Origin: Flavobacteriales bacterium
GTDB taxonomy: Bacteria > Bacteroidota > Bacteroidia > Flavobacteriales_D > Sanyastnellaceae
DNA: 64,000 nt
Direction: 5' to 3'
Assembly (NCBI GenBank): GCA_029242765.1
Contig: JAQWTJ010000004.1
Coordinates: forward strand, 72-64,071
In this document: positions 27,398 through 58,013 of the stretch, piece after piece
Numbering within the stretch: the stretch's first letter is position 1
How the letters are laid out: each line of letters opens with the position of its first letter
Made by a program: the position numbers and the translations under genes
Notes under the pieces: generated by a model
What the model was told of the DNA's origin: nothing
What the model saw: only the letters and a program-made list of their open reading frames with translations
Database searches by the model: none

Positions 27398-30300
27398 ATG
27401 CACAACATCTTCCGAATAGCAACCACCTGCTGTACGCTGCTTTGCACGCTCCTCTTTTTCCTTCAGACCTCATACGCTCAGGACACCGTCCACGTTTCAA
27501 TGATCACCACCTTGAGCGGAACTGAAATTGAGACGGCAATGCCGATTGGAGGTTGCAGTTTGACGGCCATTGACATTTCATTGAACATCGTCGCAGGCGG
27601 GAGCAATTGGGCGGGAGATATGGCCTTAGGCATCACTGCTCCAAATGGAGTTAGTATTCAATTTGGAGGGTACAACACAGGGTTCGGATACACCGAAGCC
27701 GCCGCTTGGCCCTCGGATTGGAACAGCACCTCGGACGGACTTTTTCAAGCGCACATTGGGGACTTGGCGGCCCACGGGCTGACCGGTGACGGGTGTTGGA
27801 CCGTGGAAATGATGAACGCCTGGACCTCAGGAGGGCCGTCTGACTATGTGCTAGAACTCGACTTGATCGGAGTTTGCTCAAGCGGTGGTTCGACGGGCTG
27901 TACCGATCCCCAGGCAAACAACTTTGACGACTGCGCCTTTGTCGACGACGGCTCGTGCACTTACCCGGAACTCAGCGCTGTATTTAGCTTTTCCCAAGAT
28001 TGCAGTGTGCCGGCTCTCGTTGAGTTCTCAGAACAAAGCTTAGGGAATGTTCAAAGTATGGCCTGGACCTTTGCCGGGGGGGACCCCGAAAGTTCGACCG
28101 ACCCCAACCCCATTGTGAGCTTTGCGTCGGTTGGCGATTTTGCGGTGACCTTGGAAGTGTACGACGATGAGGGCGGATCCGCAATCAATCTCGACACGGT
28201 GCACGTTTCAAATGCCCAGCGTCGCCTGCAAATTGTCATCACGCCTGATGCTTTCCCTTTCGAGACTTCATTTGCCGTGCTGAACGAAGCGGGTGACACA
28301 CTTCACCAAGGAGGTATTGAAGGGCTTGATGTGTGCGTTGAAGACGAATGCCTGGCAGTGTGGCTGCACGACAGTGGTGGCGACGGGTTCTCAATCGGCG
28401 GATTTTACAAGGTGCAGCTCGACGATGTGGTCTTGGAAGAGAACACGCACTTTGATGACGCCAAACTCGTGTACGCCGGGTGCCCTCAAGGGCAATCTTG
28501 TGACGACCCACTCATGATTATTGAGGGCGTGCAGACCGCGCCGCTTTCTGAGACGTGGTATGAAATCAATGTGCCGACCACTGGGCTTTATAAATTGGCC
28601 AGCTGTGGGCTGTCCCAGTGCGACACCGAAATCATCCTCTACGACCATTGTGACATGGCCGTATTCTGGGGAGAGAGCGAAGCCTTCATCACAGCGTCCG
28701 ACGACGACTGCGACGTGCAATCCCAAATCACGCCGATTATGGAGACCGGCATCACGTATTACGCGAGAATCGTGAACCACGACCCCAATTGCGACGGGGC
28801 GACGAGCTTCGAGTTTGAGGCCCTGGGGGGCGTTGTGGGGTGCATGGAACTTTTGGCCTGCAACTACCTGCCCATCGCAACGGAGCCGGACGTCTGCTAT
28901 TTTGCAGGCGACCCGGAGTGCCCCAGCTTCGGTCCTGATTTGATCATCAACGGCCCACGCGCGTACAGCACATTGGAATTGTACACTGAGAACAGCACCG
29001 ACGCCTGCATGATCGAAGAAGGCTGCATCCAAGGGTACGGTGAACGTGAGATCGTCCGATTCGACACTGAAATTGCGAACATCGGTACGGAGGACTATTT
29101 CATCGGCGCACCGAGCGCACAGCCCGAGCAATTCGAGTGGGATGCCTGCCACAATCACTACCACTATGAAGGCTATGCCGAGTATGCACTGTACACGAGC
29201 GGGGGCTCAGCTTGGCCGACGTTGGGCTTCAAGAACGGATTCTGCGTGATGGATTTGGGCGGCTGCAATTACGGTGGAGGTCCGGCCAAGTACACTTGCG
29301 GCTACATGGGCATCACAGCGGGCTGTCAGGACATATACTCGCGTTATCTCAACTGCCAATGGATCGACATCACGGATGTTCCCGCGGGCGATTACACATT
29401 GGTGATTCGGGTAAATTGGGATTTCTCTCCTGATGGCAATGGCTCCTACGAACTGGACTATTCAAACAACGCAGTGGCCATTTGTTTCTCTTTCGAACGG
29501 GACGATACGGGCGCTGCGGTAAACTTCACCAAAACCGAGGACTGCGATGTTCCGACGGATTGCCTCGGGGCGCCGTACGGGTCAAGCGTTCCGGACTGTG
29601 CCGGCAACTGCCCTGGCACCATTGTCAAGGGTGATTTGGACCTGGATGGGGAAGTCGACGCGGACGATCCGCTGGAGTACATCGACATGCTGATTGAGGG
29701 CGTGAGTACGGCAGCTCCGTGCGTGGATTTGAACGCGGACAGCGAATTGTCAGTCACCGATGCAGCGCTAGCTGCTGACTGCGCCTATTATGGCCACAAC
29801 CACTTGGGCGAAAATGGCGTGGAAAACCACTGCGATTGGAACGGGCCACTTCTTGCGCCTGACCAAAACGCCGAGTTCGGCATCAGCATGCCCTACCCCG
29901 ATTCCGCCTTTGTGGACTTGTCTGTGCACAATCCAACGTCTTGGCTGAGCAGTTGGGAAGTGCAACTGAGCGGGGCGACCTTCACCACGATTGAGCCCCT
30001 GTACGATACGACGGGCTTCCACCACCACTTTCAGGTCACACCCGAGGGCTACGCATTGTGTGTGGCGTTGGCCGACAGTTTGGTCGGCAAAAGTGCGTCG
30101 GTGCAGCCGTTGGTGCGCATTCACTTTGTTACGCCATCTTTCGACGGCGTATGCCTCGACAGCGTGGGTGACGTGACCAATGAAGATCGCCACGATATAA
30201 CGGCCACAGGCTCGGGATGCATCAACAGTGACGTGTGCACGGGCGACATCGACGGCAACGGCATCCGAGATGTGGGCGACTTGCTTGTAGCTTTAGGCGC

Positions 30301-30421
30301 CTTTGGATGCATAGGTGAAGGCTGTAGCGCATCAGATTTAGGCGCCGACCTTGACAACGACGGATTTGTGGGCGTAAACGACCTGCTCATTCTTCTGAGT
30401 TTGTTCGGGCAGCCTTGCTAA
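27398..30421 (+). CDS. secreted multi-domain lysyl-oxidase-like protein with dockerin-like C-terminal tails (LOX-1)
   Basis: Domain order is: signal peptide, P-domain-like module, Cys mini-module, PKD-like domain (aa ~193-270), TD..ETS/DSGGDG module, PPC-like module, LOX catalytic domain (aa ~512-700, CHNHYH...QWIDITDV), dockerin-like repeats, cohesin-like module. It ends in two EF-hand tails finishing LFGQPC*. Confidence 0.8.
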
Positions 30422-30467
30422 TGGCCCATTGGCTTGGATTGAAAATAACGGAAAGAACCGAAGCAAT

Positions 30468-33400
30468 ATGCTCGACGAAAAGCGTGGACAAACGTGGACT
30501 AAATTCGCGCCACGTTCTCGCCCAATGGAAGCACTAAGCAAGACCACGCATAACATCCGGATCGTCACAGCCGCCTCCTTGTTTGACGGCCACGACGCTG
30601 CGATCAACATTATGCGCCGCATTATGCAGCGTTCAGGTTGTGAAATCATCCACCTCGGGCATGACCGCAGCGTGGATGAAGTGGTCACGTGTGCGATTCA
30701 AGAAGACGCTCAAGCCATCGCCATGACCTCCTACCAAGGCGGTCACAACGAGTACTTCAAATACATGAAGGACTTGCTCGAAGAGCGTGGCGCCGGGCAC
30801 ATTCGGGTCTTCGGGGGCGGCGGCGGGACCATCTTGCCCGAGGAAATTGCCGAACTTCAAGGGTATGGCATCGAGCGCATCTACCACCCGGACGACGGGC
30901 GTGAGATGGGGCTGCAAGGCATGATCGACGATCTGGTCCAGCGCTGCGACTACGCCACAGTGACTGAACCCTCAGGCGAAATCGTCCGACTCTCCGAAAA
31001 AAATCCACAAGACATTGCACGGCTCATCACGGCAGCTGAAATGGGGCTCAAAAGCTTTGAAGCTGACCTTGAAAAGGTCCGTGAACAGGCCCAAACTGTG
31101 AGCGTCCCAGTGCTCGGAATCACTGGAACAGGCGGCTCGGGCAAGAGTTCGATGGTGGACGAATTGGTCCGACGTTTCCTATTGGACCAGCCAGACAAGC
31201 GCTTGGCCATAGTATCGGTCGACCCTTCAAAGCGCAAGACGGGCGGGGCGTTGCTGGGCGACCGCATCCGTATGAATGCCGTTTCCAACGACCGCGTGTA
31301 CATGCGATCGCTCGCCACGCGCCAGAGCAACCTCGCCTTGAGCCGCCACGTCGGCGACGCCCTGGGCATATTGAAGGTGGCCGGATTCGATTTGATCATC
31401 TTGGAGACCTCCGGCATCGGCCAGAGCGACACCGAGATACTCGACCACAGCGACGTTTCACTCTACATCATGACCCCCGAATTTGGGGCGGCCACGCAGC
31501 TGGAGAAAATCGACATGCTCGACTTTGCTGATTTGGTGGCCATCAACAAATTTGACAAGCGCGGGGGGCAAGACGCCTTGCGCGACGTGCGCAAGCAATT
31601 CAAGCGCAACCACGAATTGTGGGAAGCAGCCGATGACGACTTGCCCATCTTCGGAACCATCGCCTCGCAGTTCGGCGATCCTGGAACGAACCAACTGTAC
31701 AGCTCTGTGATGGAGAAGATGGTCGAGAAGACGGGGGCTTCCCTTGCCTCGTCCATGCCCACTGAAAGCGCCTCAAGTGAGAAGGTTCACGTCATCCCCC
31801 CCAAGCGAACGCGCTACTTGAGCGAGATTTCTGACACGGTGCGCGGATACAACGCTTGGGTCGAAGCCCAAGCCGCCATCGCCGGCCGTATCCAAAATCT
31901 GACCCGCGCAGCCGATGAACTCGAAGGCGACGCGAACAGCACCCAAGCCCTTTTGGCCCGCAAGGCCGAACTGCTCCTGGAACTCGACCCGAAAAACCTT
32001 CAATGGCTCGAAGCGTGGCCCGAAGAGGCCGCACGCTACAGTGCCGATGAGTATGTATTTAATGTGCGCGGAAAGGAGCTCTGCATCCCAACTTCGACCA
32101 CCTCACTTTCACAGCTGCAGATCCCTAAGGTGAGCGTGCCGAAACTCGACGGCTGGCGCGACCTCTTGCGCTGGGCGTTGCAGGAAAACCTGCCCGGTCA
32201 CTTCCCCTTCACCGCTGGGCTGTTCCCATTCAAACGCCGTGGAGAAGACCCCACGCGGATGTTCGCCGGAGAAGGCGGGCCCGAGCGCACCAACCGTCGA
32301 TTCCATTACGTCTCGGGTGATATGCCGGCCAAACGACTCTCCACCGCCTTTGACTCGGTGACACTGTACGGACGCGACCCGGGCGAGCGACCGGACATCT
32401 ACGGAAAAATTGGAAATGCAGGCGTGAGTATTTGCTGCTTGGATGACGCGAAAAAACTGTACAGCGGATTCAACCTGTGCGATCCATCGACAAGTGTATC
32501 GATGACCATCAACGGCCCAGCGCCCATGGTGCTCGCCTTCTTTCTCAACGCCGCCATCGACCAGAAATGTGAACAATACATCCGTGAGCATAAACTGGAG
32601 AACGAAGTAGAGAAGTTGCTGAAACAACGATGGGAGGCGCAAGGGCTGAAGCGGCCGCACTACAACGGGGAGCTGCCTGAGGGCAACGACGGGCTAGGGT
32701 TGATGCTCTTAGGTTGCACAGGCGATGAAGTACTCGACCGCAAAACCTACGCACGGCTTTCGGCCGAAGCCCTTACCCAAGTGCGTGGAACCGTCCAAGC
32801 CGACATTCTCAAAGAGGACCAGGCCCAAAACACCTGCATCTTTTCGACGGAGTTTGCCTTGCGTCTCATGGGCGACGTGCAAGCGCATTTCATCAATCAC
32901 AGCATCGGTAATTTTTATTCGGTCTCGATTTCGGGCTATCACATCGCCGAGGCCGGAGCAAATCCAATTTCTCAATTGGCCTTCACGCTCGCCAATGGTT
33001 TCACCTACGTTGAGTATTATCTCAGCCGGGGGATGGATATCAACGCCTTCGGACCGAACCTGAGCTTCTTCTTCTCCAACGGCATCGACCCGGAATACGC
33101 CGTAATCGGGCGGGTCGCACGACGCATCTGGTCGAAGGCCATGGACCGGAAGTACGGCGCAGGAGAAAAGGCACAAAAACTCAAATACCACATCCAAACC
33201 AGCGGCCGATCGCTGCACGCGCAGGAAATTGACTTCAACGACATCCGCACGACGTTGCAGGCCTTATATGCGATTTATGACAATTGCAACTCACTGCACA
33301 CCAACGCTTACGACGAGGCGATCACCACGCCGACCGAGGGCAGCGTACGGCGAGCTATTGCGATTCAGATGATTATCAATCGGGAATTGGGCTTAACCAA

Positions 33401-33884
33401 AAACGAGAACCCGCTGCAAGGCTCCTTCATCATTGAGGAGCTCACGGACTTGGTTGAAGAAGCCGTGATGATGGAATTCGACCAAATCACCGAGCGCGGA
33501 GGCGTGCTCGGCGCGATGGAAACGATGTACCAGCGCTCAAAGATTCAGGAGGAAAGCCTGCATTACGAGATGCTCAAGCACACGGGCGAGTACCCAATTA
33601 TCGGCGTGAACACCTTCCTTTCAAAGGAGGGCTCTCCCACCATCGTTCCGGGGGAGGTCATCCGCGCAACACCCGAGGAAAAGGCTACTCAAGTGCAAAC
33701 CGCGAAGACATTGCAGCAAGCCCATACGGAACGTTCAAGCGTTGCCCTGGATGCCGTTCAATCGGCCGCAACCCAACAAAGCAACGTGTTTGAAGTGCTC
33801 ATGGATGCTGTCAAGAGTTGTTCACTCGGTCAGCTTACAGACGCCCTATTCGAGGTGGGCGGTGCCTACCGCCGCAACATGTAA
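30468..33884 (+). CDS. icmF: fused isobutyryl-CoA mutase IcmF (B12-binding domain + MeaB-like GTPase + mutase domain)
   Basis: The N-terminus has the B12 motif ([12 protein letters not shown]...SYQGGH). The central part has the P-loop [12 protein letters not shown] and NKFD. The C-terminal mutase barrel has RMFAGEG and [12 protein letters not shown] at 30468. Confidence 0.88.
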
Positions 33885-34405: not shown

Positions 34406-36826
34406 TCACTTGACCGTGAAACGCAACACCCGGCGAAAGTCACTTTCGGTTACCGTTAGGTAGTATGCACCCGACTGCAGGCTGCTTGCATCGAGTATCC
34501 AACGATTGCTGCTGCCCCACACGTCCCGCATCACTTTTCGGCCGAGCACATCGAGCACTTCAACCGAAGCGCCCTCAAGGCTTACCCCTTCAAAGCGCAC
34601 TTCAGCACGATTTTGCACAAGGTTTGGATTCATCTGCAAGTCGGACGATTCATTCGTCTCGCTCACATCGAGCGGGTTTGAGCAAGCCACACCAATGAGC
34701 GGCACGGTGTTGTGATACACGCCATTAATTACGTCCGTGATGTGGTCGATACAAATCTCCTCTTCAGCCTCCCCTATCCAGTAGATCCGGCACAAAGGCG
34801 TGTATTCGTAATGCTTCATCATCGCGTCGTTCTCATAGCTTAGTCCAATAATCTCTTGGCCTCCCAAAGAAAAAGAAGGCGTGATTGGGAACACGATAGG
34901 ATCAGCAAGCGAAACCACCGACTCGATGTCCAAACCGGCCATCGTAAATTGATAGCCCACGATTTTATTGAAGGGGTTCAAGACATTGATATCGACAAAG
35001 CCCTGCTCCCAGTTGACGGCTCCCAAGGAGAACCACACCGAATCGTAAGGGTTGGTGATGTGCGACGCGGGGAAGTTACACCGGTCGTGAAATCCGCTGG
35101 AGTCAGGATGTTGATGAGCAATATTCCAGACGTTGCACTGGGCAAGCAAGGCCGCATCAGCCACCGTGACTTCGCCATCTTGGTCGGCGTCCACACACAT
35201 TGTGGCTTCCAAATCGCCGCCTAGGATGCCCGAAACGTATGACTGGGCGTCGGTCAGGTCTTGGTCCATGTCGGCGTCAAGATCGCCTAGCAAGGCCGAG
35301 CCGTTGCATTCACCCGTGCAGTCCACCACGGCTGTTCCGTATTGGTCTCCGTTGCAATCAACTAAAATGCTGCAATCCTGGATTTGCTCCACCTCAATTT
35401 CGCCCATTGAGCGGTCAATGTTGATGCAAACCACGCCCCAGTTGTTTTCGTACTGATTCTCGTAACGCCCCAGCGCATCAGGACTGTAATCCCAATTCAC
35501 TCGAACAACCAAGTGGTAGTCGCCGTCGGTGACGTCGGTGACATCAATCCATTGGCAGCTCAAACCGGAACCATAAATGTCGCCGCAATGGGCCGAGATG
35601 CCCATAATGGAGCATCCGTACTGGCCCGTGCCGCCATCACCGCACTCGAGGTCCATCACGCAGAATCCGTTCTTGAATCCAATCGGAAGCATGTTGCCGT
35701 CCATATCGAACAGGTCGTATCTCGCGTAGCCTTTGTAATGCCAGTGATTGTGGCAGTCCCCCCATTCAAATTGAACCGTCGAATCGTTGTTCGAGGTTGA
35801 ACCAATGTAATAATCGAGGTCTCCGATGTTCTTGATATGCGTGGTGAAGCGAACCAAGTCGCGCTCACCGTACCCGTTGAGGCAGCCTTCAGAAATGTAG
35901 CAATTGTTCTCGTCCACAGCCATCGTCTCAGCGGAGAGTGAATTTTCAATGGCCGAAGTCACGATGACCAGGTCCGGTCCTGTGCAATCTGGATCCCCTG
36001 GGTAAATGCAGCTTCCGTTGTCAATTTCAGCCCCCGGTTGATAATTGCACGCCGTTTCATCCATACAACCTTCTGGCAATCCCGCATAGTCAAACCACCA
36101 CTCAAAATCATCACAATCATCCAAGCTCGTGAAGCGTATCCAATACGTCACGCCGCCTTCGAGCAAAACCGTGAGCTGAGCTGACTCCGCCATGCCCTCG
36201 CAACCGCCTTGTTCGTCGTCGTAGTAGATCGAGCCTTCATTGGTGCTGTTAAAGTTGTTCATGTTGCAGTAATCGTACACCCACAAGCGCGTGTCACAAT
36301 TCGTTCCGCAACTGGACAAATCGTACATGCCGTTTTGATCCGGCGTAAAAGTGTACCACTGGACATCGGCATTTGAGGTGATCCACGTGCCGTAGTCAGC
36401 GGCGGTCAGCGGGGCGCCCGTGTCACAAATGGCACCCTCAGGACAACCGATCCAATGATTCTCTACAAACCCATAATTACCGCTATTGGTGATGACGGTA
36501 TCGCCGTCAAGCAGGACGGTGTAAGAACCGGGCGCGCTGAGCCCGTCGCCGTACGAATCAATCATAGAGAATCGCCAACAGGCGGTAAGTTCGTCTGCAC
36601 TAAAGCAAAGCGTGTCGCTCTCATACGTGCCCTCTGCAAGAAGTACATTGTCCCCGTCGTACAACCCCCACGAAATTTCTTGAGGCCAACTGTCAGGCAC
36701 AATCGACACGACCACTTGGGCCTCACTTTCAAGGCAATCTTGGGAGAAAACAAAGTTGGAAGAGACCGCAAAAGCAATCGTCAAAAGGGTGGTCAGCCCC
36801 GAAAAAAGGAGGTTTTTTAGGTTCAT
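34406..36826 (-). CDS. secreted multi-domain lysyl-oxidase-like protein with T9SS type A CTD (LOX-2)
   Basis: Signal peptide from the ATG at 36826 (MNLKNLLFSGLTTLLTIAFAVSSNFVFSQ). It then has the DSYGDG module, PPC-like module, Cys mini-module, LOX domain (CHNHWH...QWIDVTDV), dockerin-like repeats and cohesin-like module. The CTD is LQMNPNLVQNRAEV...LQSGAYYLTVTE...LRFTVK. Confidence 0.8.
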   Translation of the reverse strand: MNLKNLLFSGLTTLLTIAFAVSSNFVFSQDCLESEAQVVVSIVPDSWPQEISWGLYDGDNVLLAEGTYESDTLCFSADELTACWRFSMIDSYGDGLSAPGSYTVLLDGDTVITNSGNYGFVENHWIGCPEGAICDTGAPLTAADYGTWITSNADVQWYTFTPDQNGMYDLSSCGTNCDTRLWVYDYCNMNNFNSTNEGSIYYDDEQGGCEGMAESAQLTVLLEGGVTYWIRFTSLDDCDDFEWWFDYAGLPEGCMDETACNYQPGAEIDNGSCIYPGDPDCTGPDLVIVTSAIENSLSAETMAVDENNCYISEGCLNGYGERDLVRFTTHIKNIGDLDYYIGSTSNNDSTVQFEWGDCHNHWHYKGYARYDLFDMDGNMLPIGFKNGFCVMDLECGDGGTGQYGCSIMGISAHCGDIYGSGLSCQWIDVTDVTDGDYHLVVRVNWDYSPDALGRYENQYENNWGVVCINIDRSMGEIEVEQIQDCSILVDCNGDQYGTAVVDCTGECNGSALLGDLDADMDQDLTDAQSYVSGILGGDLEATMCVDADQDGEVTVADAALLAQCNVWNIAHQHPDSSGFHDRCNFPASHITNPYDSVWFSLGAVNWEQGFVDINVLNPFNKIVGYQFTMAGLDIESVVSLADPIVFPITPSFSLGGQEIIGLSYENDAMMKHYEYTPLCRIYWIGEAEEEICIDHITDVINGVYHNTVPLIGVACSNPLDVSETNESSDLQMNPNLVQNRAEVRFEGVSLEGASVEVLDVLGRKVMRDVWGSSNRWILDASSLQSGAYYLTVTESDFRRVLRFTVK

Positions 36827-37074
36827 GGTTTCAGTTGTCCTAAGCAGGTGTAAAGCATAACCCAGTTGAATAGAAAGGGGTTGCACAAGTGGTGAAAGGT
36901 ACAGAGCCGTGTGCTACTTTTGTAGGCACAACAGCACCGCAAGTTATGTCGCACGAATTTCATGAACCCGAAGAGAACGAAATCGCAGGCCCCGTTGTGT
37001 TGGCCCTGTTGATTGTAGCCATCATCGTCGTCTCCATCGCCTTGATGTAAGGCTCAACGGCCTTGGCACAAGGT

Positions 37075-40621: not shown

Positions 40622-42565
40622 TTAGCGCCGAACCAAGTGCTGAACCGCCCTCTTACCATCGGCAAGCTCCACGTGAAGCTGGTAACTTCCCGGCGCTATA
40701 CTGGCCGCCGGAACCGTCCAGGTAGACGAAACTGCAATACCGCTAGCTACACGTTGCCCGACCGCGTCAAGCAAGTACCAATTGGTCTTCGAAACGCCTG
40801 TAGAGGCCGCCAAGCCTGATGTATTTGTCAAACTGACCAGTTCGACTTTCCAAGCATCTGCAGTAGGGTTCGGGCCAACTTTCAAGGCCGACGAACCGCC
40901 CAGTTCACCCACACCATTCGAGCAATCAAAGACCGTCACGAAAATGGCGTCAGCGTAAGAGCAGCCCACATCATTGGAGGCCGTCAACACATAACTGTAT
41001 GTGCCCGCTCCCAAAGCTTGGCCATCAACCACAATGAATTGATCTACAGAACCTGTACTCCATTCATACGACAAGCCCGCAGGAGCGTAGAGAAGTAATG
41101 TTTCATTGTTGCAAATTGTCGTGTCTGCGCCCAAGGAAAATGAGAACGCATCGCCCTGCTCGACCAGCTCAAAATCGATGCTCACCGAACAACCATTGGC
41201 GTCTACAACCGAGACCTCATAAGTACCGACATCCAGCCCTTCAAGCCCCATTCCGTCACCCAAATCGCCATCGGGCCCAGTCCAAGCGTACTGATACTGA
41301 CCGGCGCCTCCTGATGCGTCAATAGATGCCCAACCATCCATAGAATCAGGGCAGCCAGGACCCTCAAACTGTAAATTGCTTACCAACTCTTCAACCTCGT
41401 CGAAGGTGACGCTGTATGACATCACCGAGCCACAGGACGTTGAAATCAAAGCTGAGTACGAGCCGAAATTGAGCCCCGTAAGCTGCCAATCCTCTGAAGC
41501 AAAACCGCCCGACCCAATCCAAGCCACGTCGTAGTCCGATCCTGTGCCTGTCATGTTTAACACCACATAACCGGAGGGGTCCTCACCGTCTCCGATTGCG
41601 CATTGAAGACCGCCTGTTGCCGCTGACAATTCAGCCTCCACTGCAGAAGAGGCCACCGAGACAGCCACCGTTCCATCACTGCCTTGCCAACCGTCAATTT
41701 GAATCAAATACGTTGCACCAGGCTCCAAGCAGCCCGTCCACAGGCGGCTGGCATAATACGCCCCCGGGCCGCATCCTCCAGGTATGTCATCGTTTGCACT
41801 GAGCAACTCGTACGTGCTGAAGTCGCCGCAATCATCAGCCTTCCACAAAGCCACCTGCGTGTCAAAATCGGTGGAGTCATGGCAGAGGTTGACCTCGCAA
41901 TTGCCCTCCTGCGCAACGAATGTGAGCCAAGCCGTTTCGCTCAGGCCCGACTCGCACCAAGCACCGCCAATGCTACAGGAATACACAGCAGACACAGGAG
42001 GAGAAGGCTCACCGAAGGCGGCCATGCACTCGCCTGTTTCCAGAATCAAAGTGTCGCCGTTCACCTCGATCGGCAGTGCGCCGCATGGCGAATCATAAGC
42101 AGGAGCCGACAGTTCGCCCACCACAAAAGACCAATCATTGCCATCACCTGTGCCAACATAGGTGCCGGCCAAAATGCCTTCGAAAAACAACTCGAAAAAC
42201 AAGCCTCCATCGCCGTAAGAGTCAATGTGAACTAGGTGCAAGGTGTCGCCCGTTGCAGCACACAAACTGTCCTCAACAACGATAATATTGCTGTCATATC
42301 CGTTGCCGCCTTGCACGTCCCCGTCGCCATTGCAACCGACGTCTTCAATATTTCCACCTTCAAAAATCAGGCTGTCGGCGCACAACATATTGTTCGGTAC
42401 AATGGCCCAATACGATTCGTAGCCCCAGGCGTCCGTATGGATTTCCAATGACATCGCCGTCTGCCCCTCAGGGCAGATTTGCGCATTCAACACATTCAAC
42501 AATCCAAACTGCACAAAGGCAGCACCCAGAATCAGCCCACAGGCTTTTGCAATTTTTTGGTTCAT
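40622..42565 (-). CDS. secreted Cys-rich protein with T9SS type A CTD
   Basis: Signal peptide MNQKIAKACGLILGAAFVQFGLLNVLNAQ. It has a DSYGDG module, a PPC-like module and SprB-like repeats (GPGCPDSMDGWASIDASGGAGQYQYAW). The CTD is LKVGPNPTADAWKVEL...PGSYQLHVEL...HLVRR. Confidence 0.7.
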   Translation of the reverse strand: MNQKIAKACGLILGAAFVQFGLLNVLNAQICPEGQTAMSLEIHTDAWGYESYWAIVPNNMLCADSLIFEGGNIEDVGCNGDGDVQGGNGYDSNIIVVEDSLCAATGDTLHLVHIDSYGDGGLFFELFFEGILAGTYVGTGDGNDWSFVVGELSAPAYDSPCGALPIEVNGDTLILETGECMAAFGEPSPPVSAVYSCSIGGAWCESGLSETAWLTFVAQEGNCEVNLCHDSTDFDTQVALWKADDCGDFSTYELLSANDDIPGGCGPGAYYASRLWTGCLEPGATYLIQIDGWQGSDGTVAVSVASSAVEAELSAATGGLQCAIGDGEDPSGYVVLNMTGTGSDYDVAWIGSGGFASEDWQLTGLNFGSYSALISTSCGSVMSYSVTFDEVEELVSNLQFEGPGCPDSMDGWASIDASGGAGQYQYAWTGPDGDLGDGMGLEGLDVGTYEVSVVDANGCSVSIDFELVEQGDAFSFSLGADTTICNNETLLLYAPAGLSYEWSTGSVDQFIVVDGQALGAGTYSYVLTASNDVGCSYADAIFVTVFDCSNGVGELGGSSALKVGPNPTADAWKVELVSLTNTSGLAASTGVSKTNWYLLDAVGQRVASGIAVSSTWTVPAASIAPGSYQLHVELADGKRAVQHLVRR

Positions 42566-50564: not shown

Positions 50565-53500
50565 TCATTCGCAAGGCTGTCCGAAGGCGCCCAGTAGTAA
50601 AAGCAAGTCACCCACAGAATTGGTGCCGTCGCCGTTGATGTCAGTGGGGCAGCTCGAAGTGCCGCTCAGTTCACAACTGCCGTCATCCTGGTTGGCTGTA
50701 GGGTCATAGTTGTCTGCCGCCTCGTACGTGCAGCCCAAAACAATCGGCGTTGCACAGCTTCCATCATCGATTCCAGCGAATGGATCGTATTCTGCACTGA
50801 AGGGGTCGGTGCAACCCTCACATGCTGAGCAACTATTAAAGCAAACGACGTCCTCCAATACAGTACCAGTCAAGACAAGCGTGCGATTGAATCCACCCTG
50901 GCCGTTGTCTGCGCCACACTCGCCTGGCACAACCTCTTGACCATCCCAAGTATTGCCATTGATATACAAGAACTGATATGATCCGCTGGACAACTGCATG
51001 CTGTACTCATATATGCCCAAGCCAGGTGTCGTCAGTGCCGTAGCTCCAGGGTCCCATCCTTGGAAGGCTCCTGCCACGTGCACCCCTTCAGCAGCAACCG
51101 TTTGATTGCTCATGTCCACTCGTATGGTCACGTTGTAGACACATGAACCATCATCCGTTGCCGCATCTTCATCGTAATTCACCGCATCCGTGTCGGTGCA
51201 ACCTACAGCTGCGTCACATGCCCCACACTGATTGTAGCATACAGTTGCAAGCGCCACTGCGCCCGCCACATCTAAGGCTCTATTGGTATAGCCACCAATG
51301 GTGGTGGTGCAGGGAGCTCCTTCTGCAAACTCTTCCTGATTGGTCCATCCATCCAATGTGAATTTGTATTCAATGGTACCCAAGGCCAAAGGCACGGTCA
51401 ATTCATACACTGAATTGCCCACATCGGTCAATTCTGAACATCCGCCGCACCAGCCATTGAATGTCCCGTTCAGATTGACGGTGCCATATCCGCCGGTGTA
51501 CAATGACATGTCCACACTGAAGGTGACGTCGTATTGGCAAGTTCCGTCGTCTTCAGTTGCTGCGTCGTTGTAATTCGCTGCCTCTGCATCCGTACATCCT
51601 GACACAGGCCCACCGGAATCACACGCGTCACACTGACCATAGGTGTCTGCAGGATTTGCTGAACCCACCTCCCACTGACGGTTGGCGTAGGACGAATAGT
51701 CCGTAAGAGGCGCACAAGCACCGCCGTCGATCATCGCCTGGATCAAGCTCTCCTGAGCACCATTGACGACCCACAGGTATTCCATGTTGTCTGTAGGCAC
51801 TGGGTCAAGAACCGCGGACCACGTGCCGTCTCCGTTGTCCGTAGCCTCAGGGCCTCCATTGGGATCCCAGCCCCACCAAGGACCGGTCATTCTAGCGGAG
51901 GTTATATCGGTGATACCGCTGCAAGACACATCAAGCGAAACAGTCAACCCAGAAGGAGCCGCACACGCGTCACACTCATTGTAGCAAACCGTTGGAAGCA
52001 CTTCTGTAGCCGCCACGACCAAGCTTCTGTTGGTATAGCCCTCAATGGTGCTGGTACAGGAAGTTCCCTCTGCAAACTCTTCCTGATTGGTCCAGCCGTC
52101 CAATGTGAATTTATATTCAATCGTGTCCTGTGTCACAGGTATAGTCAATTCATACACTGAATTGCCCACATCGGCCATTGCAGCACATCCGCCGCACCAG
52201 CCATTGAATGTCCCGTTCAGATTGACGGTGCCATATCCGCCGGTGTACAATGACATGTCAACACTGAAGGTGACGTTGTACTGACAAGATCCGTTGTCTT
52301 CAGTTGCAGCGTCATTGTAGTTCAATGCTTCTGAGTCCGTACAGCCCGACACAGGTCCACCGGTATCACACGCGTCGCACTGACCGAACGTGTCCGCAGG
52401 ACTTTCCGAACCTGCCGCCCACTGACGGTTGGCGTAAGATGAGTAGTCCGTTAAGGGTGCACAAGTGCCGCCGTCTATCATCGCCTGGATCAAGCTTTCT
52501 TGAGTACCATTGACGACCCACAGGTATTCCATGTCAGCTCCAGGTGCCGGATCAAGGACCGCGGACCACGTGCCGTCTCCGTTGTCAGTGGCCTCAGGGC
52601 CTCCGTTGGGATCCCAGCCCCACCAAGGACCGGTCATTCTAGCGGAGGTTACATCGGTGATTCCGCTGCAAGACACATCAACCGAAACGGTCAACGAAGG
52701 GTCTACAGCGCCACACGCATCACACTCATTGTAGCAAACAACTGAAAGCACTTCTGCACCCGCTACATCCAAGGTTCTGTTGGTATAGCCACCAATGGTG
52801 CTGGTGCAGGAAGCTCCTTCCGCAAACTCTTCCTGATTGGTCCAGCCGTCCAATGTGAATTTATATTCAAAAGTGCCCAAGGCCAAAGGCGTGGTCAATT
52901 CATACACCGAATTGCCCACGTCGGTCATCGCAGCACAATCGCCACACCAGCCATTGAATGGACCGTTCAGGTTTACCGTGCCATATGCACCCATGTACAT
53001 TGACATGTCCACGCTAAAGGTGACATTGTATTCACAAGATCCGTTGTCTGTAGTCGCGGTGTCGTCATAGTTGGCTGCTGTGTTATCTGTGCAACCAGAA
53101 TTTGCTGCGACTTTAGAACACGTTCCATCCGTCGAACATTCCGCGAAGCACGTCGAAATCGTTGTGTTTTCTGTAATGTTCAACAACTGCCGGTCGTTGT
53201 AATTGCCGGGGTCACCACACGGCAAACCAGCCAAGTTCTCTTTACAGGCCCAACTGGGACAATTGCCATTGGTGAACGCGTAGTACCCGGTATAGTCGTA
53301 TGGGAGTGTTTTAGTAATCGTCCAGATGTCATCACCATCCGTGTCGTCCATTGGATTGGTGCCTGGGACTCCAAAATCCAAACCACCTGCCAAAAACACA
53401 CCGTCGGGAGACGTGGTCTCATTGGCCATGTTCACCTCGAAGGTGACATCCACTGTAGTCGGAGCGGCCTCTTCCACCACAATCGTGCCCACCATACCAT

Positions 53501-53846
53501 TTGCCGCATGGGATCCAAGGCTGCAATCGTAATTGTAACTGCCCGGGGTATTCAACGTCACTGTTCCCATGCAAACACCACCAGCAGCGCCTGAATTCGC
53601 TGCCAACGCAAACGTTTCAGGATTGGTCCAGCTGTCACCGAGAGAACTGGTTACACCATTGACATTATGGTTGCCGCCTTCATTAAAAAAGGCTATGGAC
53701 TGGCCAGCGGTAATTGTGAGGGTCTGAGGGTTGAAGTAAAAATTTCCAGCAAGGACCGTATGGTCCGCGCCCGTACAGTCTTGAGCTTGGACAAAGCCAA
53801 AGGAAAAGACCGTGATGCAAAGCAGCAATAAGTTGCGCATAATCAT
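50565..53846 (-). CDS. secreted protein: N-terminal cupredoxin + about 7 CBM20/48-like beta-sandwich modules + Cys mini-modules + dockerin-like C-terminal tail
   Basis: Signal peptide MIMRNLLLLCITVFSFGFVQAQ. Type-1-copper-like ligands are GGNHNVNG...YDCSLGSHAANGMVGTIVV. Repeated modules read NGxFNGW...YELT...EYKFTLDGW. The product ends CPTDINGDGTNSVGDLLLLLGAFGQPCE*. Confidence 0.75.
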   Translation of the reverse strand: MIMRNLLLLCITVFSFGFVQAQDCTGADHTVLAGNFYFNPQTLTITAGQSIAFFNEGGNHNVNGVTSSLGDSWTNPETFALAANSGAAGGVCMGTVTLNTPGSYNYDCSLGSHAANGMVGTIVVEEAAPTTVDVTFEVNMANETTSPDGVFLAGGLDFGVPGTNPMDDTDGDDIWTITKTLPYDYTGYYAFTNGNCPSWACKENLAGLPCGDPGNYNDRQLLNITENTTISTCFAECSTDGTCSKVAANSGCTDNTAANYDDTATTDNGSCEYNVTFSVDMSMYMGAYGTVNLNGPFNGWCGDCAAMTDVGNSVYELTTPLALGTFEYKFTLDGWTNQEEFAEGASCTSTIGGYTNRTLDVAGAEVLSVVCYNECDACGAVDPSLTVSVDVSCSGITDVTSARMTGPWWGWDPNGGPEATDNGDGTWSAVLDPAPGADMEYLWVVNGTQESLIQAMIDGGTCAPLTDYSSYANRQWAAGSESPADTFGQCDACDTGGPVSGCTDSEALNYNDAATEDNGSCQYNVTFSVDMSLYTGGYGTVNLNGTFNGWCGGCAAMADVGNSVYELTIPVTQDTIEYKFTLDGWTNQEEFAEGTSCTSTIEGYTNRSLVVAATEVLPTVCYNECDACAAPSGLTVSLDVSCSGITDITSARMTGPWWGWDPNGGPEATDNGDGTWSAVLDPVPTDNMEYLWVVNGAQESLIQAMIDGGACAPLTDYSSYANRQWEVGSANPADTYGQCDACDSGGPVSGCTDAEAANYNDAATEDDGTCQYDVTFSVDMSLYTGGYGTVNLNGTFNGWCGGCSELTDVGNSVYELTVPLALGTIEYKFTLDGWTNQEEFAEGAPCTTTIGGYTNRALDVAGAVALATVCYNQCGACDAAVGCTDTDAVNYDEDAATDDGSCVYNVTIRVDMSNQTVAAEGVHVAGAFQGWDPGATALTTPGLGIYEYSMQLSSGSYQFLYINGNTWDGQEVVPGECGADNGQGGFNRTLVLTGTVLEDVVCFNSCSACEGCTDPFSAEYDPFAGIDDGSCATPIVLGCTYEAADNYDPTANQDDGSCELSGTSSCPTDINGDGTNSVGDLLLLLGAFGQPCE
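51204..53096 (-). repeat. about 2.5 tandem copies of a ~750-bp coding repeat inside the 50565..53846 gene
   Basis: Protein aa 251-500, 501-749 and 750-~881 are near-identical. Antisense shadow ORFs recur at 51340, 52087 and 52837 (offsets 747 and 750 bp) and at 51763 and 52510. Confidence 0.85.
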
Positions 53847-55482: not shown

Positions 55483-57795
55483 TTACTCACATACGCTATC
55501 GAAGGCGGATAGGAATTCTAGCAAATCAGGCGCCCCAACCAAGCCATCACCATTGAGGTCCGACGGGCAATCGCCACCGCCCAAGGTGAATGTGCATGTG
55601 CCGTCGTCAAGTGTAGCCTCACTGTCGTAATTTTCACCTTCTGTGTACGTGCATCCAGCGCAAGTACTGAACTCGCATGTGCCATTGTCATCCGTTGCTT
55701 CAGGATCGTAGTTGCATGCACCGCTATCCGTGCAGCCGTTATTTGTATAAGTTTCCCCGTCCGTGTAGTCCTCAGCATCATCGCCGGCGCCGCCGCCGCC
55801 CACTTCAAGCGAGCCTTCATCGGTGACGGAGTCGTCCACAACACGTTCCCCTACACTGGCCACCCGGTATTGAATGCCCGCCTCAAACACGAAACCACTG
55901 TCCATAGGCAGCGTGACTTGTGCCACGCGAATGGCGCGTACACATCCCGGACGATCTTGCAAGACGTCGCAAGCATCGACAGGCACGCCTTGAATGGCCC
56001 CCGTCTCAATTCTCCAGCCGACGGTGTCGCCTACGGCCATTGCCGTAAGGCCGAAATTGAAGCTGTCTATTGACTCAATCGTATCTCCGCTGAAGCCGAT
56101 GGGTGTAACCTGCAAGCCATCACCGAAGGTGCCACCGATGGTGAACCAGCTGTCCGCTCGCAAATTGACATCGGTGTAGGTCACCCCGTCCACCTCCACA
56201 GTATGCTGCAAAGCCGAAGGCTCCCAAGCTCCAGAATCCGCCTGATGAAGGCTTGAAAAGGTCGAAAATGAGAGCGCGATATCGCTGGTGCCCAACACCT
56301 TCTCCAATTGAATAGTGCCCGGAGGCATCAAAGCATAAATCTCACCGGTGTACGTCCCAGGCACACCACCCTCGTCATAGGCGTTGATGCTCGTGCGTGA
56401 AAAAGAAAAAATGGCTGTATAAATGCAGTCGCTATCATCTGCAATCATCACGGTAGAGTCGTAGTTGGTCGCTTCAGGGTCCGTACAACCAGAACAAGAA
56501 GTGTACTCACACAAGGCCGGATTGACGATCAAGGCGTCGGGGTTGTAGTTGCAGGCCCCCTCATTGCCACAGTCTGCACACGACACATAGTCACAGTTGT
56601 TTTCCTCTGCAAATGCCTCCGGGTCGTAGTTGCAAGCAGAGGGGTCAGCGCAACGCTCATTGAAGGCGTCATCGCCGATGCAAACGCCGTTGCCGTCCAG
56701 GATGAACAAAGCGGGGTTTTCATCGCTGCAATCAATCGGTTGAAAGATGTATGCCTCACCAATTTCCGAGCAGTTCACATTGAAAGCTGAAAGCACCAAA
56801 TCAGTCGTATCACTTGAACGATAGCCGTCATTGTCTACGTCGCGAAAACAAAGCTCTTGACCGTCGCAATTGCCATCGATGCCGTCGCCGGGAATCTCAT
56901 CTGCCCCGGGGTGAGCATCTGGATTGAAATCATTGCAATCTCCACCCACCATTGCTAAGCCCGGACCAAACTCACATGCATACGTCACATCCGTTCCATA
57001 GCCATCGCCGTCATTGTCCACAAAATACATTTGCTCAAAGACGCAGCTTCCATCATCCACCGTTGCATCGCTGTTGTAATTGCAAGCCGAGATATCCGTA
57101 CAACCCAGTAGTTCATCGGGGAATGTCAAAGTGGTGTTATATACGAGGCCCACGCCTTCCGTTTCAACAATCCTAGTTTGTAAGTTGAGCTCGACTGTGA
57201 CGAATCCATCCGTTGTGAATTGGCCCATCAAGACCCTCCCATTTTCATCAGGAAGCCCTTGCACAAAAGTCAATGTCGTGGTGTAGAAAGTGCCCCCCAC
57301 TGGATCGTCAACGACTTCGAAAGACCCCCCGTCCTCAAAGTTCACACCCTGCAAATGCCAAGGCGTCGACCCGGTGTTTGACGTCTCGTTGTCGATGGCG
57401 TCTTCGTAATCTATGGTGAACCAGCTGTCGTAGGCCAATTCAGGAAAACCACTGATTAATGCGGGGTTCACACCGGTCGCCAAAAGCGTTCCAAACGGGT
57501 GCTGGTAAAAGGAACCTGTCGGCACAACGCGCATGGAAGATCCTAACAAGCCCACGCTGTTGGCGAAAATTGCTTGGAGGGCCTCGCCTTCATCAGTAAA
57601 ATTGGCATAGACCCGATAAGTGTGAAAGTTATCGGGAAGGCTATTGGCCTGAATCAATTCGTAGCTAAGGCCTGTAAACGACGTATTCTCAGTGATCTCC
57701 TGAGCGGAAACGACAGGTCCAGTCATCGCAAACAACAGCGCAAGAACCCCTGTCAGGGCTGAACATACAAAAGCGGAGCTGTTGATTTGACGCAT
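55483..57795 (-). CDS. secreted protein: unnamed TYRVYA/DSWFTI domain (1 clear + 1 divergent copy) + MopE-like metal-binding motif + 6 Cys mini-modules + dockerin-like C-terminal tail
   Basis: Signal peptide from the ATG at 57795 (MRQINSSAFVCSALTGVLALLFAMTGPVVSAQ). It ends CPSDLNGDGLVGAPDLLEFLSAFDSVCE*, and I see no T9SS CTD pattern. Confidence 0.7.
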   Translation of the reverse strand: MRQINSSAFVCSALTGVLALLFAMTGPVVSAQEITENTSFTGLSYELIQANSLPDNFHTYRVYANFTDEGEALQAIFANSVGLLGSSMRVVPTGSFYQHPFGTLLATGVNPALISGFPELAYDSWFTIDYEDAIDNETSNTGSTPWHLQGVNFEDGGSFEVVDDPVGGTFYTTTLTFVQGLPDENGRVLMGQFTTDGFVTVELNLQTRIVETEGVGLVYNTTLTFPDELLGCTDISACNYNSDATVDDGSCVFEQMYFVDNDGDGYGTDVTYACEFGPGLAMVGGDCNDFNPDAHPGADEIPGDGIDGNCDGQELCFRDVDNDGYRSSDTTDLVLSAFNVNCSEIGEAYIFQPIDCSDENPALFILDGNGVCIGDDAFNERCADPSACNYDPEAFAEENNCDYVSCADCGNEGACNYNPDALIVNPALCEYTSCSGCTDPEATNYDSTVMIADDSDCIYTAIFSFSRTSINAYDEGGVPGTYTGEIYALMPPGTIQLEKVLGTSDIALSFSTFSSLHQADSGAWEPSALQHTVEVDGVTYTDVNLRADSWFTIGGTFGDGLQVTPIGFSGDTIESIDSFNFGLTAMAVGDTVGWRIETGAIQGVPVDACDVLQDRPGCVRAIRVAQVTLPMDSGFVFEAGIQYRVASVGERVVDDSVTDEGSLEVGGGGAGDDAEDYTDGETYTNNGCTDSGACNYDPEATDDNGTCEFSTCAGCTYTEGENYDSEATLDDGTCTFTLGGGDCPSDLNGDGLVGAPDLLEFLSAFDSVCE

Positions 57796-58013
57796 ATCGA
57801 GTGAGTTAATTTGACTGTGTAAGTTAAGGACTATCGGGTTCATTATGCTCTCATTTACAAAGCCGTAGGAGAATTAAGATTCCTCCGACAATTGCAAATC
57901 AGAAGGCCGAACCAACCGAAATTGATCCGGCCTTCCGGAGCTAAAGATGCGAGGCAGTTTCTTGCCTTTGACAAAACTGACTTAAGTCACTTGTTCCGCT
58001 GACGGTTGTTCTC

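What the first reader, a model, noticed from the sequence alone, without database searches (positions are those of the whole stretch)
35414..35980. Second lysyl-oxidase-domain paralog on the opposite strand, also with intact catalytic residues
Residues ~303-491 of the 34406..36886 ORF (ORF-track numbering) read CYISEGCLNGYGERDLVRFTTHIKNIGDLDYY...FEWGDCHNHWHYKGYARYDLF...[17 protein letters not shown]...CGDIYGSGLSCQWIDVTDVTDGDYHLVVRVNWDY...YENNWGVVCINI. The HxHxH triad is at 35738..35752, the Lys codon at 35672..35674 and the Tyr codon at 35573..35575. The two LOX domains clearly diverge from each other, with many substitutions outside the motifs. This looks like an old duplication with both copies under selection, not a recent repeat.
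Basis: partly seen in the sequence, partly recalled or inferred. Interest (0 to 1): 0.7.

Follow-up and report, generated by a model that had tools for sequence, protein, structure and literature searches.

The report
Paired secreted bacterial lysyl-oxidase paralogs
The flagged stretch is a real, intact lysyl-oxidase (copper amine oxidase) domain in a large secreted surface protein of an uncultured marine Flavobacteriales bacterium, with an old paralog 5 kb away; the family is large and already annotated, so this is a correct but fairly ordinary finding.

Summary
Confirmed. Window 35414..35980 (-) encodes a lysyl-oxidase domain: Pfam PF01186 E=4e-29, and human LOXL2 (5ZE3) at profile E=3.5e-31. 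HNHWH, Lys and Tyr sit exactly at the reported codons and align with LOXL2's copper histidines and LTQ Lys/Tyr. These residues and eight cysteines are invariant in 203 aligned domains.

The gene (P1) probably starts at ATG 36826, giving 806 aa rather than 826. Its modules are signal peptide, two beta-sandwiches, Cys linker, LOX, dockerin-like helices, a cohesin-like module and a T9SS C-terminal domain.

The paralog P2 (27398..30421, +) shares about 700 aa of this architecture (36% identity overall, 53% in LOX). It adds a P-domain-like module and a PKD module, and ends in a GC-type dockerin-like tail instead of a T9SS domain.

Both are under purifying selection (dN/dS 0.065 and 0.155; neighbouring genes about 0.07). 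The LOX-IcmF-LOX arrangement recurs in about 20 related loci. P1 and P2 fall in separate deep clades, so the paralogy is old.

Bacteroidetes LOX was reported in 2015, and NCBI already names such proteins "lysyl oxidase family protein". Verdict: a new member of a known kind. Enzyme chemistry is well supported by homology; substrate and physiological role remain inferred.

The parts
34406..36826 (-). P1 gene: 806-aa secreted multi-module lysyl-oxidase family protein. The mechanical ORF extends to the GTG at 36886; the probable start is ATG 36826; the stop codon is 34406..34408.
   Evidence: 97%-identical 806-aa ortholog P0001
36743..36826 (-). N-terminal Sec-type signal peptide (about residues 1-28, 806-aa numbering)
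   Evidence: Read from the sequence (MNLKNLLFSGLTTLLTIAFAVSSNFVFS); the AF2 model has a lone helix at 6-21. No signal-peptide predictor was run.
36437..36736 (-). N-terminal beta-sandwich module with the invariant DSYGDG motif (residues 31-130)
   Evidence: AF2 pLDDT about 85; invariant D90, G93, D94, G95; no Pfam family; 33% identical to the matching P2 module
36071..36436 (-). Second beta-sandwich module (residues 131-252)
   Evidence: no Pfam family
35981..36070 (-). Cysteine-rich linker CxDxxACNYxxxAxxDNGSCxY...DPxC (residues 253-282)
   Evidence: The same motif occurs in P2 and in two other large secreted proteins of the window.
35414..35980 (-).
   Evidence: PF01186 E=4e-29; LOXL2 5ZE3 E=2e-20 / 3.5e-31; Foldseek 5ZE3 E=2e-10, probability 1.0
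35738..35752 (-). HNHWH copper-binding histidine triad
   Evidence: invariant in 203/203
35672..35674 (-). Lys codon predicted to form LTQ; aligns with LOXL2 K653 in GHKASFC
35573..35575 (-). Tyr codon predicted to form LTQ; aligns with LOXL2 Y689 in CWDMY
35072..35413 (-). Cys-rich linker plus a dockerin-like helical pair with DxDxD loops (residues 472-585)
   Evidence: AF2 helices 524-536 and 555-570. Pfam Dockerin_1 gives only E=0.36, which is not significant.
34679..35071 (-). Cohesin-like beta-sandwich (residues 586-716)
   Evidence: Foldseek hits 2w1n, 6kgd, 4dh2, 2ccl with probability 1.0; no Pfam family
34409..34678 (-). T9SS type-A C-terminal sorting domain (residues 717-806)
   Evidence: PF18962 21 bits (cut-off 27), TIGR04183 22.7 bits (cut-off 23); Foldseek 8glk_D T9SS substrate CTD TMt 0.78; homologs carry PF18962
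27398..30421 (+). P2 gene: 1007-aa paralog. Modules: signal peptide, P-domain-like module, PKD, then the same module series as P1.
28931..29497 (+). P2 lysyl-oxidase domain. HNHYH at 29150..29164, K612 at 29231..29233, Y647 at 29336..29338.
30224..30418 (+). P2 C-terminal GC-type dockerin-like domain, in the position where P1 has a T9SS CTD
   Evidence: Profile hits dockerin 2y3n_B at E=2e-7 and other dockerins. NF041540 dockerin_GC matches 10 of 11 orthologs over the full model, best E=2e-6, but below the curated cut-off.

Best explanation
P1 (34406..36826, -) is a secreted, probably cell-surface copper amine oxidase of the lysyl-oxidase family, from an uncultured marine Flavobacteriales bacterium.

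Proposed route (inferred). A Sec signal peptide takes the protein to the periplasm. The disulfide-rich modules fold there. The C-terminal domain then directs export through the type IX secretion system, followed by release or attachment to the outer surface.

Proposed chemistry (inferred by homology; every required residue is present). The LOX domain binds Cu(II) through H359/H361/H363 (806-aa numbering). It self-processes Y418 and K385 into the lysine tyrosylquinone (LTQ) cofactor. It then oxidatively deaminates primary amines, most likely epsilon-amino groups of peptidyl lysine or other amines in dissolved or particulate organic matter: R-CH2-NH2 + O2 + H2O -> R-CHO + NH3 + H2O2.

The two N-terminal beta-sandwiches probably target the substrate or surface. 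The dockerin-like and cohesin-like pair probably mediates protein-protein assembly.

P2 (27398..30421, +) is a deep paralog with the same core modules and an intact active site. It has an extra P-domain-like module and a PKD module at the N-terminus, and a C-terminal GC-type dockerin-like tail instead of a T9SS domain. The two enzymes have therefore kept the same chemistry while diverging in how they are sorted or anchored.

The physiological role I think most likely is extracellular processing of lysine-rich or amine substrates, either liberating ammonium or modifying and cross-linking surface or particle proteins. This is a weak inference.
For: Family membership and active site: (Pfam and LOXL2 alignments). 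One search shows three His, Lys, Tyr and eight Cys invariant in 203 domains including LOXL2. One search shows the PDL...E...NN positions also align with LOXL2. One search gives Foldseek 5ZE3 E=2e-10.

Secretion: a signal-peptide-like N-terminus; a borderline T9SS CTD by HMM supported by fold (8glk_D, TMt 0.78) and by PF18962 in most homologs; another T9SS cargo (CHU_C/SprB) lies in the window.

Functional constraint: dN/dS 0.065 (P1) and 0.155 (P2), against 0.067-0.072 for the neighbouring IcmF and S46 genes. The LOX domain is the slowest-evolving part at greater distance (dN 0.065-0.11 against 0.20).

Old paralogy.

Module architecture.

Precedent for activity: a prokaryotic LOX (Haloterrigena) is an active, BAPN-sensitive amine oxidase with relaxed specificity, and its authors suggest a role in nitrogen availability (PMC6452851).
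Against: No biochemical data exist for any flavobacterial LOX, and no paper on them was found.

AF2 confidence is low around the active-site loops: P1 residues 343-363 have pLDDT below 50, and the P2 LOX core is poorly modelled.

The T9SS CTD scores sit just under the curated cut-offs.

Genomic context is mostly housekeeping: IcmF-like mutase, S46 peptidase, threonine-aldolase-like lyase, YaaA, FKBP. No copper chaperone or transporter is consistently adjacent, so context does not indicate a substrate or role.

How P2 would cross the outer membrane without a T9SS CTD is unexplained.
Confidence: 0.8

Rival explanations
1. The pair did not arise by duplication within this lineage. One copy, most likely P2, was inserted by lateral transfer of an already diverged family member from another Bacteroidota, making it a xenolog rather than an in-genome paralog.
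For: More distant genomes with the same S46-LOX...IcmF-DUF3089 synteny lack P2 between IcmF and DUF3089 (L066; L067). P2-type is a small, tight clade of about 19 orthologs. It nests among long 1100-2150-aa LOX proteins rather than next to P1.
Against: P2 shares the full P1 module order, so it comes from the same protein family. GC content shows no anomaly at either gene. Loss of P2 in the other lineages explains the pattern equally well. The NJ tree is based on 185 columns and its deep nodes are unsupported.
Confidence: 0.3
2. The main role is production of H2O2 and aldehydes as an antagonistic or antifouling weapon. This would be analogous to the lysine epsilon-oxidase LodA of Marinomonas (analogy recalled from my own knowledge), rather than nutrient processing or cross-linking.
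For: The LOX reaction releases H2O2 (family knowledge). A YaaA peroxide-stress homolog (PF03883) lies in a conserved position about 6 kb away in all syntenic loci.
Against: YaaA is a widespread housekeeping gene and is not in an operon with the LOX genes. There is no immunity or catalase partner next to either LOX gene.
Confidence: 0.15
3. The proteins are adhesins or structural surface proteins in which the LOX domain cross-links the cell's own surface or matrix proteins, or proteins of host particles. This would be an ECM-like role as in animals.
For: This is the canonical LOX role in animals (PMC4448552). Both proteins carry many binding-type modules: beta-sandwiches, PKD, cohesin-like and dockerin-like. 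P2 modules resemble ColG collagen-binding and PKD domains (5iku, 4tn9).
Against: No collagen-like or obvious substrate gene lies nearby. The 5iku match is a generic beta-sandwich with low TM-score (0.33). Grau-Bove et al. considered cross-linking of bacterial collagen-like proteins unlikely.
Confidence: 0.2
4. One or both copies are catalytically dead pseudo-enzymes or decaying genes.
For: None positive. P2 has a somewhat higher dN/dS (0.155) than its neighbours.
Against: Both ORFs are intact. All catalytic and disulfide residues are invariant. dN/dS is far below 1, and the P2 LOX domain alone gives 0.094. Both copies are retained in about 20 genomes.
Confidence: 0.03

Closest known systems
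Human LOXL2 catalytic domain (PDB 5ZE3) and the Pfam PF01186 lysyl oxidase family
   Same: Same fold and domain. The HxHxH copper site, the LTQ Lys and Tyr, eight cysteines (four disulfides) and the PDL...E...NN positions are conserved.
   Different: About 28% identity. There are no SRCR domains and no animal-type propeptide. The domain sits inside bacterial surface-protein modules and carries a T9SS sorting signal. The substrate cannot be collagen or elastin in a free-living marine bacterium.
Prokaryotic LOX surveyed by Grau-Bove et al. 2015 (PMC4448552) and the Haloterrigena turkmenica HTU-LOX characterised by Pestov et al. 2019 (PMC6452851)
   Same: Prokaryotic LOX domains with intact His triad and LTQ residues. 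Bacteroidetes is explicitly listed as a LOX-bearing phylum. HTU-LOX shows that a prokaryotic LOX domain can be an active, BAPN-sensitive amine oxidase.
   Different: [quoted passage not shown] The proteins here are 800-1000 aa with 6-9 modules, and they occur as multiple paralogs per genome.
NCBI-annotated 'lysyl oxidase family protein' / 'T9SS type A sorting domain-containing protein' of marine Flavobacteriales and Crocinitomicaceae MAGs
   Same: Direct orthologs and paralogs with 50-97% identity, the same length, the same PF01186 + PF18962 content and the same synteny.
   Different: None of substance. The window protein is another member of this group.
Cellulosomal cohesin-dockerin modules and NCBIfam NF041540 GC-type dockerin domain
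   Same: The P1 module at residues 586-716 and the aligned P2 module (residues ~815-942) match cohesin folds; for P2 only 2w1n matched. The P2 C-terminal 60 residues match true dockerins (2y3n_B, E=2e-7) and span the whole NF041540 model.
   Different: No cellulosome context. Pfam Dockerin_1 and the NF041540 cut-offs are not reached. Binding partners are unknown.

Membership tests
Lysyl oxidase catalytic domain (Pfam PF01186) | Match to the family HMM above the curated gathering score | tested here: met
   P1 102.1 bits and P2 102.5 bits, against a cut-off of 20.4
Lysyl oxidase catalytic domain (Pfam PF01186) | Three copper-ligand histidines in an HxHxH motif, aligned with LOXL2 H626/H628/H630 | tested here: met
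   HNHWH (P1) and HNHYH (P2) align with HRHYH of 5ZE3. Invariant in 203/203 domains.
Lysyl oxidase catalytic domain (Pfam PF01186) | Lys and Tyr that form the LTQ cofactor, at the positions of LOXL2 K653 and Y689 | tested here: met
   GFKNGFC aligns with GHKASFC, and CGDIY aligns with CWDMY. Invariant in 203/203. The LOXL2 residue numbers come from my own knowledge of 5ZE3.
Lysyl oxidase catalytic domain (Pfam PF01186) | Conserved disulfide framework of the catalytic domain | tested here: met
   Eight Cys columns are invariant across the bacterial domains and LOXL2
Lysyl oxidase catalytic domain (Pfam PF01186) | LOX fold | tested here: met
   The P1 AF2 model matches 5ZE3 in Foldseek with E=2e-10 and probability 1.0. 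Active-site loops are low-confidence. The P2 LOX core is too poorly modelled to test.
Lysyl oxidase catalytic domain (Pfam PF01186) | Cu-dependent, BAPN-sensitive amine oxidase activity with an LTQ cofactor | not testable with these tools
   Needs protein expression and enzymology
Animal LOX / LOXL1-4 subfamilies (ECM cross-linkers) | N-terminal propeptide (LOX/LOXL1) or SRCR domains (LOXL2-4) | tested here: not met
   Pfam finds no SRCR domain. The N-terminal modules are bacterial beta-sandwich, PKD or P-domain-like. Distance to LOXL2 is about 1.3 against 0.7 or less within the bacterial set.
T9SS type-A cargo (P1 only) | C-terminal sorting domain (PF18962 / TIGR04183) | tested here: inconclusive
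   Scores fall just below the cut-offs: 21 against 27 bits, and 22.7 against 23 bits. Support comes from Foldseek 8glk_D TMt 0.78 and from PF18962 hits in most homologs.
T9SS type-A cargo (P1 only) | N-terminal Sec signal peptide and T9SS machinery in the genome | not tested
   The signal peptide was judged by eye only. Another T9SS cargo with CHU_C lies in the window, but the machinery genes were not searched for.
Cohesin module | Cohesin beta-sandwich fold and sequence family match | tested here: inconclusive
   The fold matches several cohesins with probability 1.0 and TMt about 0.5. There is no Pfam match.
Dockerin / GC-type dockerin (NF041540), P2 C-terminus | Duplicated Ca-binding loop-helix repeat matching the family model above its cut-off | tested here: inconclusive
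   The ortholog profile hits dockerin 2y3n_B at E=2e-7. NF041540 aligns over positions 1-67 of 67 in 10 of 11 members, but the window's own sequence scores 20.7 bits against the 29-bit cut-off (E 4e-4; best member E 2.3e-6). Pfam Dockerin_1 gives E=0.92.

The most novel reading that the evidence does not exclude
The two paralogs form one surface machine. P1 would be exported and anchored by the T9SS and would display a cohesin-like module. P2 lacks any T9SS signal and would dock onto that module, or onto its own, through its C-terminal GC-type dockerin. The result would be a cellulosome-style multi-enzyme amine-oxidase complex on marine Flavobacteriales that oxidises lysine or amine groups of organic matter. 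This would also give bacterial LOX its first defined physiological role.
Probability: 0.1. Interest if true: 0.6.

Novelty: new member of a known kind. Interest (0 to 1): 0.3.

Why it matters
The biological function of prokaryotic lysyl oxidases is still unknown. The only biochemical study found calls its archaeal enzyme "cryptic" (PMC6452851). This locus shows that marine Flavobacteriales keep several deeply diverged, strongly constrained LOX paralogs as large secreted multi-module proteins. The LOX-domain search gave about 250 50%-identity clusters at E<=1e-30; most of the 150 best listed are ~800-aa proteins with the LOX domain at about residues 270-470. That argues for a real extracellular role rather than a relic of gene transfer. 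It also offers a tractable pair: the same catalytic core with two different anchoring domains. The gene itself is not a discovery, because the family is already annotated and Bacteroidetes LOX was reported in 2015.

Tried and rejected
- An exact-sequence look-up of the 826-aa ORF found nothing, because the real gene starts 20 codons downstream. The 806-aa ortholog P0001 was then used instead.
dS is also saturated against the 76-78% orthologs. I used the 97% ortholog instead.
- The sigma-70 promoter and terminator scan around the gene found fewer sites than shuffled sequence. It is uninformative, and Bacteroidota promoters differ from the sigma-70 consensus anyway.
- Pfam scans of the isolated N-terminal, second beta-sandwich and cohesin-like modules found nothing significant.
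- Literature searches for flavobacterial, T9SS or "bacterial lysyl oxidase" work returned nothing relevant.
- Gene neighbourhoods of four diverse family members showed no recurrent functional partner: no copper chaperone, no transporter apart from one TonB-dependent receptor, no substrate gene.
- The P2 AF2 model was too poor in its LOX core to recover LOXL2 by Foldseek.
- A recent repeat or assembly duplication is rejected: the two LOX domains share 53% aa identity.
- A pseudogene is rejected: both ORFs are intact and dN/dS is low.
Full report
**Observation**

The ORF 34406..36886 on the minus strand is present, 826 aa from a GTG. The three sets of coordinates are exact and in frame: 35738..35752 = HNHWH, 35672..35674 = Lys, 35573..35575 = Tyr.

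Pfam assigns residues 313-484 to PF01186 Lysyl_oxidase with E=4.1e-29, 102 bits against a gathering score of 20.4. The only solved structure matched is human LOXL2 (5ZE3), at E=2.3e-20 with the single sequence and E=3.5e-31 with a 47-sequence family profile.

In both alignments:
- HNHWH lies on HRHYH.
- GFKNGFC lies on GHKASFC.
- CGDIY lies on CWDMY.

These are the copper histidines and the Lys/Tyr pair that form lysine tyrosylquinone in LOXL2. The LOXL2 residue numbers H626/628/630, K653 and Y689 come from my own knowledge of that structure.

One correction is needed. The closest homolog (P0001, 97% identity) is 806 aa, and its called gene translates exactly. The real start is therefore almost certainly the ATG at 36826, immediately before a signal-peptide-like segment.

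**The paralog**

ORF 27398..30421 (+), 1007 aa, also matches PF01186 (E=3.1e-29). It carries HNHYH at 29150..29164, K612 at 29231..29233 and Y647 at 29336..29338.

The similarity is not limited to the LOX domain. BLASTP aligns about 700 residues at 36% identity, E=7e-122. Identity by module:

| Module | P1 vs P2 identity |
|---|---|
| N-terminal beta-sandwich | 33% |
| Second beta-sandwich | 35% |
| Cys linker | 48% |
| LOX domain | 53% |
| Dockerin-like segment | 36% |
| Cohesin-like module | 20% |
| C-terminus | not homologous |

The two genes are convergent. They flank an IcmF-like fused B12 mutase/MeaB gene (30429..33884) and a 148-aa membrane ORF.

**Architecture**

An AF2 model of P1 (mean pLDDT 75.7) resolves six folded units. 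Foldseek against the PDB matches:
- the LOX domain to 5ZE3 (E=2e-10, probability 1.0);
- residues about 586-716 to cohesins (2w1n, 6kgd, 4dh2, 2ccl; probability 1.0);
- the last about 80 residues to a T9SS substrate C-terminal domain (8glk_D, TMt 0.78) and to DUF3244.

HMM scores for the T9SS domain are borderline: PF18962 21 bits against 27, and TIGR04183 22.7 against 23. Most homologs do carry PF18962.

P2 adds a furin/kexin P-domain-like module and a PKD domain at its N-terminus. It ends in a duplicated DxDxDG loop-helix tail. A profile of this tail from 11 sequences hits a genuine dockerin (2y3n_B, E=2.2e-7) and several others. It also spans the whole NCBIfam NF041540 "GC-type dockerin" model in 10 of 11 members, though below the curated cut-off. 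The paralogs therefore share a catalytic and targeting core but differ in their C-terminal sorting or anchoring device.

**Selection and age**

Against the 97% ortholog locus L001, Nei-Gojobori dN/dS values are as follows:

| Gene | dN/dS | LOX domain only |
|---|---|---|
| P1 | 0.065 | 0.062 |
| P2 | 0.155 | 0.094 |
| IcmF (neighbour) | 0.067 | - |
| S46 peptidase (neighbour) | 0.072 | - |

At 76-78% identity dS is saturated, but the LOX domain is the slowest-evolving part (dN 0.065-0.11 against about 0.20 elsewhere).

Twenty of the 65 loci (the window among them), from metagenomes and GTDB genomes, hold both copies; 17 of the others show a full-length second copy in the same arrangement. Each copy is 83-86% identical to its own type (96-97% in the near-identical locus L001) and 51-55% identical to the other.

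In 203 aligned LOX domains the three His, the Lys, the Tyr and eight Cys are invariant, human LOXL2 included.

In an NJ tree of 162 domains rooted on LOXL2, P2-type is monophyletic in 100/100 bootstraps. It groups with long (1100-2150 aa) family members. P1 groups with about 800-975-aa proteins. The smallest clade holding both contains 61 tips.

"Old paralogy, both copies constrained" is well supported.

Whether P2 arose by duplication in this lineage or was acquired from another Bacteroidota is open. More distant syntenic genomes lack P2 between IcmF and DUF3089.

**Distribution and prior knowledge**

The P1 search returned more than 1,129 homologs, a capped count. Nearly all come from marine or aquatic Flavobacteriales, Crocinitomicaceae or Bacteroidota MAGs. 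Several are already named "lysyl oxidase family protein" by NCBI.

A search of 1.84 billion cluster representatives with the LOX domain alone found 2,681 clusters at E<=1e-3 and 252 at E<=1e-30. Most of the listed top hits are about 800 aa with the LOX domain at about residues 270-470.

Grau-Bove et al. 2015 already listed Bacteroidetes among LOX-bearing bacterial phyla, and noted that all but three of the prokaryotic sequences they identified carry only the LOX domain. Pestov et al. 2019 showed that an archaeal LOX is an active, BAPN-sensitive amine oxidase with relaxed specificity and an unknown native role. I found no paper on flavobacterial or T9SS-linked LOX.

**Mechanism**

Shown here:
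- membership of the LOX family;
- intact catalytic and disulfide residues;
- purifying selection;
- the multi-module secreted-protein architecture.

Inferred:
- Sec export, then T9SS export of P1;
- copper loading and autocatalytic LTQ formation;
- oxidative deamination of peptidyl lysine or other primary amines to aldehyde, NH3 and H2O2 at the cell surface.

The physiological purpose is not resolved by context. Candidates are nitrogen liberation or protein modification, cross-linking or adhesion, and H2O2-based antagonism. The neighbouring genes are housekeeping or general peptidase genes, and four other family members have unrelated neighbourhoods.

**Verdict**

This is a new member of a known, already annotated family. 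The mildly new aspects are the elaborate module architecture, the multi-paralog expansion in marine Flavobacteriales, and the contrast between a T9SS domain and a dockerin-type C-terminus. That contrast permits, but does not demonstrate, a cohesin-dockerin-assembled surface oxidase complex.

Noticed in passing
window 40622..42565 (-): A 647-aa secreted protein conserved in the same synteny block. It has a T9SS-type C-terminal tail similar to that of P1 (31% identity over 104 aa, E=1e-6), a weak SprB repeat, and an N-terminal DSYGDG-motif region weakly similar to the LOX proteins' first two modules (E=0.008). It has no LOX domain and its function is unknown.
   Followed up: partly
window 27899..27964, 36002..36067, 51135..51200, 52278..52343, 53028..53093, 57037..57102: A short cysteine motif, CxDxxAxNYxxxAxxD(D/N)GSCx(Y/F), recurs as an inter-module linker in both LOX paralogs and in two other large secreted proteins (50565..53846 and 55483..57843). 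No Pfam family was identified for it.
   Followed up: partly
window 50565..53846 (-): A 1093-aa protein combining an N-terminal plastocyanin/azurin-type copper-binding domain with CBM48/AMPK1_CBM and pullulanase X25 modules. This is an unusual cupredoxin-plus-glycan-binding secreted protein in the same genome region as the copper oxidases.
   Followed up: no
window about 36960..37064 (+), between the S46 peptidase gene and P1: A small 34-aa ORF (MSHEFHEPEENEIAGPVVLALLIVAIIVVSIALM) with one hydrophobic helix. A 34-aa gene is called at the equivalent position in L063 (8210..8314), so it may be a conserved small membrane protein.
   Followed up: no
L009 (CAXQGL010000019.1), L028/L032 (PBNL01), L054 (CAXPZW010000038.1); protein P0070: Contigs carrying this flavobacterial LOX gene are filed under MAGs named Nitrosopumilus sp., Methanobacteriota archaeon, Luminiphilus sp. 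and Euryarchaeota archaeon. L009 even holds both LOX copies about 9 kb apart on opposite strands, as in the Flavobacteriales loci. These look like binning contamination and could inflate counts of 'archaeal' LOX in database surveys.
   Followed up: partly
window 30429..33884 (+): An IcmF-like fused B12-binding/MeaB GTPase/acyl-CoA mutase gene lies between the two LOX genes. The LOX-IcmF-LOX arrangement is kept across orthologs down to 60% identity. No functional link is evident.
   Followed up: partly
L066 10412..13468; L067 10939..13983: In more distant relatives, the gene immediately downstream of the P1-type LOX is a roughly 1015-aa CotH/LTD/CHU_C (T9SS type-B) protein. It is absent from the window. 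CotH-family proteins are kinase-like spore-coat or surface proteins, so this may be a lineage-specific partner.
   Followed up: no
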